Below, piece by piece: positions 16,208-26,080 of a stretch of DNA of 34,827 nucleotides. The translations under genes and the position numbers were made by a program. This stretch comes from a bacterium (GTDB taxonomy: Bacteria; SZUA-182; DTGQ01; JAFGSM01): contig JBLIRP010000036.1 in assembly GCA_049472355.1 (NCBI GenBank), positions 1 to 34,827 on the forward strand, in the 5' to 3' direction. A model generated the notes under the pieces. That model worked only from the letters and a program-made list of their open reading frames with translations. It searched no databases and was not told where the DNA came from. The number at the start of each line of letters is the position of its first letter. The stretch's first letter is position 1.

Positions 16208-17728
16208 TCATCCGTGTTTGCGTATCCCGAGCTTCCTCAACCGCGAATCAAAGGTGGAACGGTTTAATCCCGCAGCCCTGGCACACTTGGAGATGTTCCA
16301 GCGGTTTTGTTCAAGCAATTGGAGGACATACTCCCTCTCCAGGTCCTTCCACGAGCGATCGTCGAGGGTACGGGGCCTGTCCGGGACACGGCCCGATCCG
16401 GGCATTCGTTGCCGGGGCTCTGTATCGAAGGATTCCGGTGGGTTAACAACCATAAAGTGCTTCGGCAGATTGTCGAGGGAAATGACCGGATCGTCGTTTA
16501 CCACAATGATATGTCTGACAAAGTTTTCAAGCTCCCTGATATTCCCCCTCCAGGGATAGTGCACCAGGCGGTCCAGGGCCTCATTGGACAGCCTCTTCGG
16601 CTTGATGCCCAGCCGTCTTGACTCCCTGTGGATAAAGCCTTCCAGGAGCAGCGGAATATCCTCACCCCTGTTTCTCAGGGGAGGAAGGTGCAGGGGGAGG
16701 ACGTTCAGCCGATAGAACAGGTCTTCCCTGAATCGCTTCTCGGCAATCGCCTCTTTCAGATTGGCATTGGTTGCCGCTACGATCCGAACATCAACCCTTT
16801 TGGAAACATTACTGCCGAGGGGTTTGATCTCCCCGTCCTGAATGAACCGCAACAGGCGCGCCTGGAGATCATAGGACATATCGCCGATTTCATCCAGGAA
16901 CACGGTCCCCCCGTTTGCGGTCTCAAAAAGGCCGTCCTTATCCCTGACCGCACCGGTAAACGCGCCCCGTTTATGCCCGAACAATTCGCTCTCCAGGAGG
17001 GTTTCCGGGATGGCGCAGCAGTTTTGCACCAGATAGGGATTCTCGCGGCGGTTGCTCAAACGGTGGAGCTCCCGCGCAAACAGTTCCTTACCCGTGCCGC
17101 TTTCCCCGGTGATCAGCACAGGATAATCAACCCTGGCATAGCTCTTCAGCTTCTCGTACTCGTTGAGAAAGCATCTGCTTTGACCGATGATCGCCTGATG
17201 GTCCTTAAACTCGCCAATGATCTTTTTGAGCTCCCTGTTTTCCTCGAGCTGCTTGTGGTAGTCGAAGTACTTGCTGATGGCGATTGAGCCCACCTTTATA
17301 ATATCCTCAATTAATTCAAGGTAGTCCTTGTCCAGGTTCATGATGTTTCCGCTGCTCATGACATCGATGAGCTCAAGTGCGCCGAACACCTCACCGGATT
17401 CGAGGATGAGGGGGAAGCAGAGTATGAGGTTGCTCTTCAACGCAAAGTCCTGTTCGATTTGTTGAAAGTGCCGCTCGTCTTCACCGGCCTTTGCAATCGT
17501 CCTTCGCCCGTTTTCTATCACCCACCCCACAATGCTGGGGTGGTCGCTGCGTATGCTGATACCCTTCACCTTTTCGCTTTCCTCGCCCAGCGCCTCGATG
17601 CACAGGTACCTGGCCCCCTTTTTGACCCAAATGGATCCCCGTTCGACGTTCTGCAGCTTCAGGAGACTTGAAAGAAAGGCATTGAGGATGTCAGCGGTTT
17701 CGAATGGCTTTTTGATCATGGCGCACAC
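16208..17728 (-). CDS. Sigma54-dependent enhancer-binding protein (GAF-AAA+-Fis HTH)
   Basis: N-terminal GAF domain, [52 protein letters not shown]-terminal HTH. Start is GTG 17728 or ATG 17719. Confidence 0.95.
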
Positions 17729-17888
17729 TACCCGTTAATGAAGGGGATACAAAAAAATCTTTAATGATAAAGGACTATCCCAATAGAGCGTTACATAACC
17801 TGGCCTTTTATAATTTTAATAGTATATCATCATTTTTTTGAATTATCAATATTATTTCCATTACCAAACATTCGATTCGTTTTTTAAC

Positions 17889-17965
17889 TTCTCCCTTCTC
17901 CATTCTCCCTTCTCCATTCTCCCTTCTCCATTCTCCCTTCTCCATTCTCCCTTCGACATTCGTTT
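17889..17965 (+). repeat. Heptamer tandem repeat
   Basis: Nine alternating TTCTCCC/TTCTCCA units followed by TTCGACA and TTCGTTT. Confidence 0.95.
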
Positions 17966-18136
17966 TTATAATGATAATGAATATGCTGGGAACAAGGATG
18001 GAACTACCGAAATTTCGTTAATTTTATCTTAAAACAATACATCTGTTGTCATTTAATGATTTTTTTTAGATCCCACAGAAACGTATTTGGCCCGTTATTC
18101 CTTGTATACACAGGGTTTTGGTGCGATCTTCAAGAT

Positions 18137-18151
18137 TGGCACATGAATTGC
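18137..18151 (+). promoter_or_regulatory. Sigma54 -24/-12 promoter
   Basis: TGGCAC-atgaa-TTGC, an exact consensus, divergent from the sigma54 activator gene. Confidence 0.8.
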
Positions 18152-18162
18152 TTCTTAATAAA

Positions 18163-18470
18163 TGCGTAACCTTGAAACGATCCATTGGCGTGTGATCACA
18201 ACACCGTTCTCACGCCTCCTTGACATGAAAATCTCACGGAACATTCGCTGCGGCCATCATATTGCCTGCAGCACAACCGATTGAAGGGTCCCACGAAGGC
18301 CAAAAGAGGGTCGGCCTTATTTGGGGGGGAACAAAAAGGGATCGGCCCGGACGGAAACGGTTGGAGTGGGTTTTACAGCTCACATAAGTGCAATTGCTCT
18401 TTGAGTGGTTGCATGGAAACTCCGTTTCCAAATTTAAAAGCCTCCGGTTTTTACCGGAGGCTCTTTTTTT
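18163..18470 (+). ncRNA. Candidate sigma54-dependent small RNA (about 305 nt)
   Basis: Bounded by a sigma54 promoter and a strong terminator; contains several hairpins and no credible ORF. Confidence 0.5.
18439..18470 (+). terminator. Rho-independent terminator
   Basis: agcctccggt-tttt-accggaggct followed by cttttttt. Confidence 0.85.
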
Positions 18471-18623
18471 GTGCGTACGTGCAGACAAGGTAAGGGCCCT
18501 GGCGATACGATACAATCCTATTCCCGGGGCGAAAAAATCCCTTTCCTGGCCTTACATGTCTGGTGCAAAGGCACACCGTGTCGGATCATCGGGATACGGC
18601 CATAAGGGTGAAATATCGGCATA

Positions 18624-19136
18624 CTACCGTCGTGGACAAGGCGAAAGGCGCCCATAGAGCCCGATCTCCTGCTCGAAATTCGGCGTGAACACGCCGGTCC
18701 CCATGGCTGCGGCGATCTCTTCCCTATCCCAGAAACGGACCGCCTCGATCTCTTCCCGGTTGAACTCAATGGCTCCGTCGAAGGTGCACTGATAACTGCG
18801 AATGTTCTCCGATTCCACCTCATTGCGCATCTTGTAATCGTAAAGATAATCCAGCGAAATTCCCTTGATCCCCAGTTCCTCCTCCAGCTCTCTTAATGCC
18901 GCCTCCTCATACGATTCCCCGGAGGCCACATGCCCTCCCACCGAGGTATCCCATTTGCCCGGCTGAATGTCCTTGTTCATCGACCTCTTCTGGAGCAGGA
19001 GCTGTCCCCGGGAATTGAAGACCAGTATATGGGCAGCCCGATGAATGAGACCGGGATTTCCGTGGCATTCACTCCTGAGTGCCCTTCTGAGGATCACGTT
19101 CTCTTCGGTTACGATATCGAGGTATTCGTTGTCCAT
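18624..19136 (-). CDS. NUDIX hydrolase (YfcD/Idi-like)
   Basis: HRAAHI, LLLQKRS..K..PGKWD, Nudix box GGHVASGESYEEAALRELEEELG; GGAGG RBS before ATG 19136. Confidence 0.92.
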   Translation of the reverse strand: MDNEYLDIVTEENVILRRALRSECHGNPGLIHRAAHILVFNSRGQLLLQKRSMNKDIQPGKWDTSVGGHVASGESYEEAALRELEEELGIKGISLDYLYDYKMRNEVESENIRSYQCTFDGAIEFNREEIEAVRFWDREEIAAAMGTGVFTPNFEQEIGLYGRLSPCPRR

Positions 19137-19290: not shown

Positions 19291-20814
19291 TCAGGCGGCA
19301 TTCCCGATGATTATGTCCGAAGCCAGACGCGCCGTGTGCATCGCCGAAGGAACCCCGCCCAGGAAAAGCTCGGAAACCGCATAAATGCCGACCATCAGGA
19401 GATGCTCAACAGGGGTTTCCACCAATATCCTTCCCCCGAGCACCCCTTCATGCTCCATGCTCCAACTCCATCCGGCAATGGAGCCCTTGTAGCGATGCCC
19501 CCAGTCCTCATAGGTCAACGGGGTTGCAGCCTCCATCACCTCGACTGCGGCGCCGAGACCAGGAATGATCCCCTCGACCGTATGTATCAGGGAGTGCGCA
19601 AGCCGTTCCTTGTACTCGCGGTATCCCCCTCCCCTCCTCTTCTCGCCGGTGCGAAAACCGGCAACGCATTCGTAGGGCAAATCCACACGGAGCACCATGG
19701 CGGCCTTTCCCGAAGGCATCAGGTCAGGGGCGTTGTCCGACCACAGGCAGATTTCGATCTCACGATTCCGGAAATCCTCCGGGCCGCTTTCCGCCTCCGG
19801 ATCGAGACGGTGGCGGTAAAACACGTGGGTTGCCCTCAGACGGCCCAGGTCAATCCCTTTCGGATCTATCCCCAGATAAACGCACAACTCCGATCCGGTA
19901 TAGGGGACCTCTTTGACCTTTTCCAGAAATGTCCCCGAAACATTGCGTTCATCAAGGAGGTCAAGAAACGTCCTCTTGTAATCGGTATTCGATACCACCC
20001 ACTGGGATTCGAACACCCTCCCCCCTGCGGTCCTCACCCCGACCGCCCTTCCATCCCTGACCAGGATCTCCTCCACTGGCGCCCCCGTGTGCAGTTCCCC
20101 GCCATGACGCTCGAATGCATCACGGAGCAGATCGCATATGCCGTGGATGCCGCATGAGGGAAACCATATACCCTCCCACGACATGAGATTCCACATGGAG
20201 GCGAGCTTCAGCGCCGACACGACCGGCTCGTACGTCCCCTGGGAACCCAGCAGGCGTTTGAGGAATGGGTCGGACAGGGAGCGGTCGAGCATTGTACTGC
20301 AGGAGGTGCCTGCATATGCACTGATGCGCTCGAACCTGGAGAGAAAATCCCCCTTTGCATTCGCAGGCGTTCGCTCCCGCTCATAGCGGGAGAGATAGTC
20401 GGGGTGCCATCGATACACGTCCCTTACCAGGGAGATGATGTCTTCCATCTCCGCAAACAGGGGATCGATGCACTGTTCCCCAGGGAATGCCTGGTGCAGC
20501 ATTCCCTTGAACTCCTCGAAAGGGCGCGAGTAAATGATATCCACAAAGGGGGTGATGAGTTGAAAGTGGTTTCTTTTAAAGGTGATCTCCGTTTCAATGC
20601 CGGTCTGGTCCAATAATTCCTGTACCAGGGAGGGGTAGCTGAAGGAGAGCGGTCCCATGGGGAAGGCATACCCGCCGCGACGGAAGATGTAGCTCGTGCC
20701 CCCGATGTGACGATCCTTTTCAAGGAGCACCACCCTCTTTCCCCCCTTTGCAAGCATCGCCGCGCACATCAACCCGCCTATTCCCGCCCCGATGACCGTG
20801 ACATCATACGCCAT
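19291..20814 (-). CDS. FAD-dependent oxidoreductase, phytoene desaturase family
   Basis: VIGAGIGG...LLEK...IGG Rossmann fold; C-terminal ATPLTY...GSIAGW...TPVEHL...GGVP. Confidence 0.88.
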   Translation of the reverse strand: MAYDVTVIGAGIGGLMCAAMLAKGGKRVVLLEKDRHIGGTSYIFRRGGYAFPMGPLSFSYPSLVQELLDQTGIETEITFKRNHFQLITPFVDIIYSRPFEEFKGMLHQAFPGEQCIDPLFAEMEDIISLVRDVYRWHPDYLSRYERERTPANAKGDFLSRFERISAYAGTSCSTMLDRSLSDPFLKRLLGSQGTYEPVVSALKLASMWNLMSWEGIWFPSCGIHGICDLLRDAFERHGGELHTGAPVEEILVRDGRAVGVRTAGGRVFESQWVVSNTDYKRTFLDLLDERNVSGTFLEKVKEVPYTGSELCVYLGIDPKGIDLGRLRATHVFYRHRLDPEAESGPEDFRNREIEICLWSDNAPDLMPSGKAAMVLRVDLPYECVAGFRTGEKRRGGGYREYKERLAHSLIHTVEGIIPGLGAAVEVMEAATPLTYEDWGHRYKGSIAGWSWSMEHEGVLGGRILVETPVEHLLMVGIYAVSELFLGGVPSAMHTARLASDIIIGNAA

Positions 20815-26065: not shown

Positions 26066-26080
26066 TGGCACATTCCTTGC
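26066..26080 (+). promoter_or_regulatory. Sigma54 -24/-12 promoter
   Basis: TGGCAC-attcc-TTGC, an exact consensus. Confidence 0.8.

What the first reader, a model, noticed from the sequence alone, without database searches (positions are those of the whole stretch)
18137..18470. Orphan sigma54-driven ~305-nt noncoding transcript opposite a GAF-sigma54 activator
Seen: a perfect TGGCAC-N5-TTGC and a strong terminator enclose only a 19-codon ATG ORF with no RBS and an unconvincing TTG ORF that runs through the terminator. Hairpins include ggcgtg/cacgcc, aaggcc/ggcctt, ggaaacgg/ccgtttcc and tgcaattgctc/gagtggttgca. An anti-Shine-Dalgarno CCTCCTT (~18215-18221) and four ANGGA motifs (18236, 18337, 18351, 18413) are present. 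Knowledge: activator-adjacent sigma54 sRNAs exist (CbrB-CrcZ, LuxO-Qrr1), and ANGGA is the CsrA site. Inference: a novel sRNA output of the neighbouring activator, acting as a protein sponge or RBS-pairing RNA.
Basis: partly seen in the sequence, partly recalled or inferred. Interest (0 to 1): 0.75.

Follow-up and report, generated by a model that had tools for sequence, protein, structure and literature searches.

The report
Genus-restricted sigma-54 small RNA gene
A roughly 308-base folded RNA gene with its own sigma-54 promoter and terminator sits opposite a signal-sensing activator in one genus of uncultured bacteria; it looks like an uncatalogued example of a known kind of regulator, and it is not a CsrA sponge because csrA was not found in these bacteria.

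Summary
The promoter (18137-18152), terminator (18439-18470) and the lack of a conserved reading frame are confirmed. It is the only one of 47 strict sigma-54 sites in the genome followed by a strong terminator and no gene. A congener keeps it at 87% identity and loses the ORFs and the anti-SD. Its 3' core is 124/132 identical, against 75-83% at local fourfold sites. A third congener, saturated at synonymous sites, keeps the 3' part beside the same NUDIX gene: a GGGWCGGCC/G-run motif, a three-way junction and the terminator, with three double-sided pair changes. No Rfam family matches. The CsrA-sponge reading fails: csrA occurs in 1 of 20 genomes of the phylum and none of the genus. Hfq, ProQ and RapZ were not found; KhpA is present. 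No mRNA target beat shuffled controls. Transcription is not shown. Best reading: an activator-driven sRNA (0.8) that more likely binds a protein through purine-rich, SD-like motifs than pairs with mRNA. New member of a known kind (Desulfovibrio sigma-54 ncRNAs, Pxr).

The parts
16208..17719 (-). GAF - sigma-54 AAA+ - Fis HTH one-component activator, divergent from the RNA; probable but unproven regulator (alternative GTG start at 17728)
   Evidence: Pfam GAF_2, Sigma54_activat, HTH_8; GAFTGA motif in the translation; 94% identical orthologue in the same arrangement in G001
17821..17849 (-). sigma-70-like promoter that would serve the activator gene
   Evidence: 10 of 12 consensus match with TG extension; AT-rich block conserved in G001; consensus match only
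18009..18049 (.). two imperfect palindromes (18009-18025 and 18034-18049), about 115-150 nt upstream of the predicted start; candidate activator binding sites
   Evidence: conserved in G001, where both are perfect 6-bp inverted repeats; function inferred
18137..18152 (+). sigma-54 (-24/-12) promoter
   Evidence: 16 of 16 identical in G001
18163..18470 (+). predicted small RNA, about 308 nt; start inferred from promoter geometry
   Evidence: fold z -3.93; homologues L002:1530-1833(-) and L199:2290-2539(-); no conserved ORF; expression not shown
18163..18296 (+). variable 5' half with two hairpins (18187-18216, 18248-18271) whose stems are unchanged while loops change, and a 16-nt invariant island (18228-18243)
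   Evidence: 103 of 134 identical to G001, i.e. at the neutral level; 14 of 14 stem pairs kept; not recovered in G002, whose contig ends
18308..18348 (+). conserved GGGWCGGCC motif and G-run; in G000 and G001 a long hairpin presenting a GGGGGGAA loop
   Evidence: loop unpaired probability about 1.0 in G000 and G001, but G-run only 0.7 open at its first three Gs in G002; the pattern occurs once in each of G000, G001, G002 and in 0 of 17 other genomes (pattern designed after seeing G002)
18353..18429 (+). three-way junction: P1 GGAAACGG/CCGTTTCC (18353-18360 with 18422-18429), P2 18366-18383, P3 18388-18414
   Evidence: P1 invariant in 3 of 3 genomes; base of P3 has one double-sided change in G002; P2 and P3 lengths vary; 27 of 27 pairs kept in G001, 3 by one-sided changes
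18439..18470 (+). intrinsic terminator, probably bidirectional and shared with the NUDIX operon
   Evidence: two double-sided pair changes in G002
18624..19136 (-). convergent NUDIX hydrolase gene; synteny marker, tail-to-tail with the RNA in G000, G001 and G002
   Evidence: Pfam NUDIX

Best explanation
It is a stand-alone, non-coding small RNA gene (about 0.8). When the neighbouring GAF-sigma-54 activator senses its signal (about 0.65 that this neighbour is the driver), it binds the palindromes at 18009-18049 and opens the sigma-54 promoter. A roughly 308-nt RNA is made from about 18163 to the terminator. Its working part is the 3' 175 nt: a purine-rich motif with an SD-like G-run and a three-way junction with arms of free length. 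It most likely acts in trans by binding a protein, as a decoy or scaffold that displays ribosome-binding-site look-alikes (G-run, repeated GGAAAY), and so relieves or retimes translation of mRNAs that carry such sites. The partner is not CsrA, Hfq, ProQ or RapZ; KhpA is the only general RNA-binding candidate found. Shown by computation: promoter class, terminator, no conserved ORF, purifying selection on the 3' core, structure-compatible change, and absence of the known partners. Inferred: transcription, the activator link, and the decoy mode.
For: Only 1 of 47 strict sigma-54 sites is followed by a strong terminator with no gene. G001 loses the ATG at 18225 and has indels of 4 and 1 nt. The core is 124/132 identical against 0.75-0.83 at local fourfold sites (binomial p 6e-6 against 0.80, 7e-4 against 0.844). 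A model built only from G000 and G001 found the G002 copy at the syntenic site (E 3e-4); without the terminator that window ranks 1 of 1948, although G000-G002 fourfold identity is 0.29-0.43. What survives is purine-rich and repeated (GGAAAC/GGAAC 4 times against 0.9 expected, p 0.008; G002 has a second, 11-G run). The pyrimidine strand of P1 is paired (probability 0.78 and 0.93 in G000 and G001). No target beats shuffles. G5 runs lie in the RBS of 9 of 33 first genes behind sigma-54 promoters against 154 of 1694 other first genes (p 0.0025). Precedent: Desulfovibrio has 4 sigma-54 ncRNAs, one divergent from a one-component activator (PMC4641369, passages).
Against: No transcript seen. Only three homologues, one truncated. 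25% of 246 intergenic control windows are also at least 94% identical to G001, and the 5' half is at the neutral level. The non-circular structure test is modest: 11 of 87 pairs broken against 17.1 expected (p 0.014), or 15.3 (p 0.062) when halves are kept apart. G000 and G001 share no double-sided change in the 55 pairs counted. G002's rank-1 margin is thin (42.5 against 41.5), its fold z without terminator is -1.31, P1 has probability 0.05 in its full 3' context and its G-run is only partly open. The G5 enrichment is post hoc, rests on my own crude gene calls, and in G002 (4 of 21 against 3 of 64, p 0.06) is no stronger than for ordinary GGAGG (7 of 21 against 9 of 64, p 0.06). No binding protein is identified. 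Negative target scans have little power for short seeds.
Confidence: 0.4

Rival explanations
1. The same sigma-54 sRNA gene, but it regulates by base-pairing with mRNAs without Hfq or ProQ, as proposed for Pxr, using the G-run loop, GGGWCGGCC, the 5' island, or the CCGUUUCCAA strand once P1 opens.
For: Short sequence blocks invariant at saturated distance behave like seeds. P1's 3' strand has alternative partners, so it may switch. Pxr is a sigma-54 sRNA beside an activator in a lineage without Hfq (PMC5568312, passages). KhpA is present.
Against: No start region among about 2500 called genes pairs better than with shuffled segments (3 segments; 5 segments). The best lead, three gspC-like paralogues, is matched by 7 of 52 shuffles and weakens in G001 (-14.0 and -11.1 against -19.2 and -17.7 kcal/mol). 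The anti-SD is not conserved.
Confidence: 0.28
2. A relic: a promoter plus the leader and 3' UTR of a protein gene deleted in the ancestor of G000 and G001. The conserved 3' domain would be an mRNA-end or stability element attached to a terminator shared with the NUDIX operon.
For: Two distant activator relatives (L084, L086) have a divergent sigma-54 promoter that drives protein genes. The 5' half evolves at the neutral level. The G002 contig ends at the motif, so an upstream gene there cannot be excluded. The terminator works in both directions.
Against: The promoter (16/16), palindromes, both 5' stems and the 3' core (94%) are kept between G000 and G001 despite about 20% synonymous divergence. 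No ORF remnant scores as coding. The conserved part extends 130 nt upstream of the terminator and folds better on the plus strand.
Confidence: 0.13
3. A ligand- or conformation-switching RNA (an orphan riboswitch-like aptamer acting in trans), built on the three-way junction with alternative pairings.
For: Conserved three-way junction with purine-rich linkers and free arm lengths. Mutually exclusive pairings exist for both the GGCC block and CCGUUUCC. This genome does put a c-di-GMP-I riboswitch behind a sigma-54 promoter elsewhere.
Against: No gene downstream on the same strand in any of 3 genomes. No Rfam riboswitch hit. The possible antiterminator bases before P1 differ in G002 and the junction linkers differ too.
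Confidence: 0.1
4. mRNA for a small peptide, including TGA read-through as selenocysteine at 18282.
For: A leaderless ATG at 18162 and an ATG at 18225 are in frame with a TGA that is TGC in G001. A 10-codon GTG frame inside P3/P1 is shared by G000 and G001.
Against: Both ATGs are absent in G001, indels of 4 and 1 nt shift the frames, coding scores are negative, and the 10-codon frame has no SD and is absent in G002.
Confidence: 0.04
5. A CsrA/RsmA-titrating sRNA.
For: Four ANGGA motifs in G000 and G001, and four in the G002 fragment.
Against: csrA found in 1 of 20 phylum genomes (another family) and 0 of 5 in the genus; controls rang in 3 of 14. GGA count is not above chance (8 against 6.7) and the ANGGA motifs are mostly predicted paired.
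Confidence: 0.02

Closest known systems
Sigma-54-dependent ncRNAs of Desulfovibrio vulgaris Hildenborough, especially the ncRNA upstream of DVU2357 in the DVU2359 regulon (Kazakov et al. 2015, PMC4641369; passages seen, supplements not read)
   Same: ncRNA listed as the only target of a one-component sigma-54 activator that is divergently transcribed from the promoter; function unassigned beyond post-transcriptional regulation.
   Different: Different lineage; sequences were not compared directly. Neither the RNA model nor a strict pattern found this RNA in the deltaproteobacteria-like genomes searched.
Pxr of Myxococcus xanthus (PMC5568312; passages seen)
   Same: Multi-stem-loop sRNA with a sigma-54 promoter beside a sigma-54 regulator gene, in a lineage without Hfq.
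   Different: Pxr is 108 nt and lies downstream of a response regulator; this RNA is about 308 nt, divergent from a GAF activator, and has a three-way junction. No Rfam family reaches its threshold here.
GlmY (sigma-54/QseF-driven decoy for RapZ; PMC7073468 and PMC6075780, search listings and abstract openings only)
   Same: A sigma-54-driven sRNA acting as a protein decoy is the mode proposed here.
   Different: No RapZ in 5 of 5 genomes of the family; no Rfam hit.
CsrB/RsmY/RsmZ and CrcZ sponges
   Same: Repeated purine-rich motifs; comparable length; CrcZ is sigma-54-driven (recalled).
   Different: No csrA and no hfq (0 of 6 genomes); GGA motifs neither enriched nor loop-displayed.
suhB/MmgR (RF00519)
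   Same: Best sub-threshold Rfam hit, 28.9 bits against a gathering score of 41, over CGUUUCC plus the terminator.
   Different: Lacks the anti-SD that follows CGUUU in that family; the G002 copy does not hit the family.

Membership tests
Activator-linked sigma-54 sRNA genes (a kind, not a sequence family) | -24/-12 promoter and rpoN in the genome | tested here: met
Activator-linked sigma-54 sRNA genes (a kind, not a sequence family) | adjacent activator with an intact GAFTGA motif and conserved upstream sites | tested here: met
   for G000 and G001; not recovered in G002
Activator-linked sigma-54 sRNA genes (a kind, not a sequence family) | own terminator and no conserved ORF | tested here: met
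Activator-linked sigma-54 sRNA genes (a kind, not a sequence family) | discrete transcript | tested here: inconclusive
   one contig-level RNA run holds the organism at depth 3-4 with no contig over the RNA
Activator-linked sigma-54 sRNA genes (a kind, not a sequence family) | transcription depends on RpoN and this activator | not testable with these tools
   needs in vitro transcription or a reporter
CsrB/RsmY/RsmZ | csrA/rsmA in the genome | tested here: not met
   1 of 20 phylum genomes, 0 of 5 in the genus
CsrB/RsmY/RsmZ | many GGA motifs in hairpin loops | tested here: not met
   8 GGA against 6.7 expected; ANGGA motifs mostly paired; one GGA at the end of the G-run loop
Hfq- or ProQ-dependent sRNAs (Qrr, CrcZ) | hfq or proQ present | tested here: not met
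   hfq 0 of 6 genomes; proQ 0 of 5
GlmY/GlmZ | RapZ present and Rfam match | tested here: not met
Any Rfam 15 family (including Pxr, suhB, riboswitches, 6S, tmRNA) | score at the gathering threshold | tested here: not met
   0 hits for the window, L002 and L199; 6S lies elsewhere in the genome; no tRNA or tmRNA in the window; positive control c-di-GMP-I found in L293
Desulfovibrio sigma-54 ncRNAs | sequence or structure homology | not tested
   their sequences were not fetched; the paper's supplements were not read

The most novel reading that the evidence does not exclude
The RNA is the decoy arm of an unrecognised Csr-like circuit. In a phylum that lacks CsrA, Hfq, ProQ and RapZ, an unknown protein (or KhpA) binds G-run Shine-Dalgarno sequences, which are over-represented in front of sigma-54-driven genes, and this sigma-54 RNA titrates it through its G-run loop and GGAAAY repeats, giving feed-forward release of translation across the sigma-54 regulon. 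An extreme version is that the exposed loop engages the 16S anti-SD itself.
Probability: 0.12. Interest if true: 0.75.

Novelty: new member of a known kind. Interest (0 to 1): 0.42.

Why it matters
It adds an uncatalogued structured RNA, with a defined conserved core, from a small uncultured phylum where none of the four classic sRNA partner proteins was found. It is therefore a concrete bait for finding how such bacteria do post-transcriptional control. As a kind (activator-linked sigma-54 sRNA) it is known, it is narrowly distributed, and the host is uncultured, which limits the impact unless the partner protein turns out to be new.

Tried and rejected
Expression: of 6 RNA runs listed, 4 were laid. 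X1 has two contigs 100% identical to the window (18501-18755 and 19331-19584, depth 3-4) and none over 18163-18470; these are contigs at low depth, so this is neither support nor refutation. X3 shows depth 1.42 in the bin 18278-18411 from a piece that is not listed, and holds next to none of the words; not used.

Homologue searches without result: 58 of 60 other genomes by BLAST, plus one terminator-only hit in G022; class and phylum BLAST and model searches, which all missed the real G002 copy, so their negatives are weak; 5 deltaproteobacteria-like genomes; 0 of 401 genomes with a strict pattern whose spacing would also miss the G002 copy; viral contigs (none; 15 matches, none with a P1 partner or a sigma-54 site); plasmids and phages. 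No paralogue in G000. The 8 other matches to the P1-terminator pattern lack a terminator context (5 inspected, 3 not). The single scans of genome and metagenome contigs went to the activator protein, so the RNA motif itself was never scanned there.

The 5' half in G002: not recovered from 30 of its 38 sigma-54 sites; the top score (L260) is AT-rich noise. One site lies 10 nt from a contig end (L252) and cannot be assigned.

Divergent sigma-54 promoters beside activator relatives: 2 of 10 loci, and no intergenic one among 13 loci.

Targets: an accessibility-aware scan timed out; simpler scans gave nothing above shuffles; the gspC-like lead was rejected. Selenocysteine read-through, an antiterminator before P1, and a boxA-like stretch in P3 (label recalled) were dropped because G001 or G002 do not keep them. 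One search used a structure string shifted by one column and is void; one search replaces it. No 16S tail was found in the assembly.

Full report
Observation. The promoter pattern occurs twice in the window against 0.04 expected. In the genome 46 of 47 strict sites are intergenic, rpoN is present, and this site is the only one of the 47 followed within 700 nt by a strong hairpin and T-run, with the next same-strand gene 5.6 kb away (gene calls are my own simple model). The predicted RNA folds better than shuffles (z -3.93; -2.14 without the terminator), and its 3' core folds better on the plus strand (-3.22 against -1.53). The ANGGA count is marginal (p 0.046), and the motifs are mostly predicted paired.

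Surroundings. The unit lies between a divergent GAF-AAA+-HTH activator (16208-17719) and a convergent NUDIX gene. Two palindromes 115-150 nt upstream of the start are conserved and become perfect in G001. The genome belongs to a small phylum with 20 genomes held.

Homologues. G001 (same genus, 97% complete) has the whole unit at 87% identity beside a 94% identical activator. It lacks both ATGs, has indels of 4 and 1 nt, and changes the anti-SD to CCTCATT, so neither a peptide nor the anti-SD is conserved. Identity is 16/16 in the promoter, 103/134 in the 5' half and 124/132 in the 3' core, against 0.75-0.83 at fourfold sites of four flanking genes and 0.844 over 28,982 sites. Against this, 25% of 246 intergenic control windows also reach 94%; that control covers about 243 kb of alignment and includes near-identical regions and probably uncalled genes. 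A covariance model made from G000 and G001 alone then found a diverged copy in G002, tail-to-tail with the orthologous NUDIX gene at a contig end (E 3e-4). It ranks 1 of 1948 windows without the terminator, by a thin margin. G000 and G002 are saturated at fourfold sites (0.29-0.43), yet G002 keeps, in order, GGGWCGGCC, TTGGGGG(GG)AA, GGAAACGG, the base of P3, CCGTTTCC and the terminator, with one double-sided change in P3 and two in the terminator, while P2 and P3 differ in length. Its fold without the terminator is not significant (z -1.31), and P1 competes with an upstream near-copy. The RNA was found in 3 of 5 genomes of the genus; in G003, G004 and G006 other genes follow NUDIX. It was not found beside 18 distant activator relatives. 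Genome-wide filters missed the G002 copy, so absence elsewhere is weakly shown.

Structure test. Of 55 pairs in 7 helices, none is broken in G001 and 3 change on one side, but that structure was chosen with both sequences in view. With the structure predicted from G000 alone, 11 of 87 pairs are broken against 17.1 expected (p 0.014), or 15.3 (p 0.062) when the two halves are permuted separately.

Partners. csrA is in 1 of 20 genomes of the phylum and none of the genus; hfq in 0 of 6; proQ and rapZ in 0 of 5; the KhpB N-terminal domain in 1 of 6, outside the genus. KhpA is present in G000. KhpA/B are described as sRNA-binding proteins in a lineage lacking CsrA, Hfq and ProQ (10.1101/2023.10.30.564711, listing and abstract opening only).

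Targets. No start region pairs with any segment better than shuffles. A lead pairing the 5' island with three gspC-like start codons was matched by 7 of 52 shuffles and weakens on both sides in G001, so I reject it. G5 runs are more common in the RBS of sigma-54-driven first genes (9 of 33 against 154 of 1694, p 0.0025), but this is post hoc and the G002 check is no stronger than for GGAGG.

Expression. One metatranscriptome holds the organism at depth 3-4, with contigs on NUDIX and the next gene and none on the RNA. This decides nothing.

Mechanism. Shown by computation: a promoter of a functional class, a terminator, no conserved ORF, selection on a 3' core, and absence of the classic partners. 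Inferred: the neighbouring activator switches on a 308-nt RNA whose purine-rich, SD-like motifs bind a protein (0.40 overall). Base-pairing (0.28), a relic of a deleted gene (0.13), a switching aptamer (0.10), a peptide mRNA (0.04) and a CsrA sponge (0.02) are the rivals. The decoy choice rests on the purine-rich, repeated, partly loop-displayed character of what is conserved and on negative target scans of low power. It is a preference, not a result.

Comparison. It is arranged like the activator-linked sigma-54 ncRNAs of Desulfovibrio, one of which is divergent from a one-component activator (PMC4641369, passages; supplements not read, and they may hold sequences worth comparing), and like Pxr (PMC5568312, passages). 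It belongs to no Rfam family and fails the partner tests for Csr, Hfq-dependent and GlmY systems. Six literature searches found no description of it. Earlier notes of this scan list similar orphan sigma-54 units, so the kind is recurrent; none matched by sequence.

Verdict. A probably real, uncatalogued, genus-restricted sRNA gene; new member of a known kind; interest 0.42.

Noticed in passing
window 17889-17954: Perfect 14-nt tandem repeat (4.7 copies) between the activator and the promoter; absent in G001 and found once in the genome, so probably a recent expansion that lengthens the spacer.
   Followed up: partly
G000:C49 (L293:919-1009, minus) and G000:C13 after 27739: c-di-GMP-I riboswitch directly behind a sigma-54 promoter, confirmed by Rfam for C49 (83.8 bits); the C13 case was seen by eye only.
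   Followed up: partly
G000 sigma-54 promoters on C58, C95, C106, C116, C129, C139: Many first genes behind sigma-54 promoters encode signal-peptide proteins rich in Tyr, Gly and Ser repeats; similar genes occur in G002-G004. Possibly a family of secreted structural proteins.
   Followed up: no
G000:C88:18314, C1:80155, C49:1627-2586: Three GspC-like paralogues: one in a full type II secretion operon, one stand-alone, and one whose N-terminus and upstream DNA are fused to an unrelated 700-residue region.
   Followed up: partly
genus genomes G000-G004: KhpA is present in G000, but the KhpB N-terminal domain was found in 0 of 5 genus genomes and only in a short ORF in G005.
   Followed up: partly
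window 26066-26080: A second perfect sigma-54 site, 387 nt upstream of a 292-codon gene with no Pfam match.
   Followed up: no
window near 17845; L084 and L086 upstream regions: A 12-nt AT-rich motif is shared upstream of the divergent sigma-54 promoter in G000, G001, L084 and L086, at different distances (-292, -225, -126, -124); could be an IHF-like or activator site.
   Followed up: partly
G000 against G001, e.g. C16, C52, C82, C115: Several intergenic regions are 98-100% identical although fourfold identity averages 84%, suggesting recent exchange between the two species.
   Followed up: no
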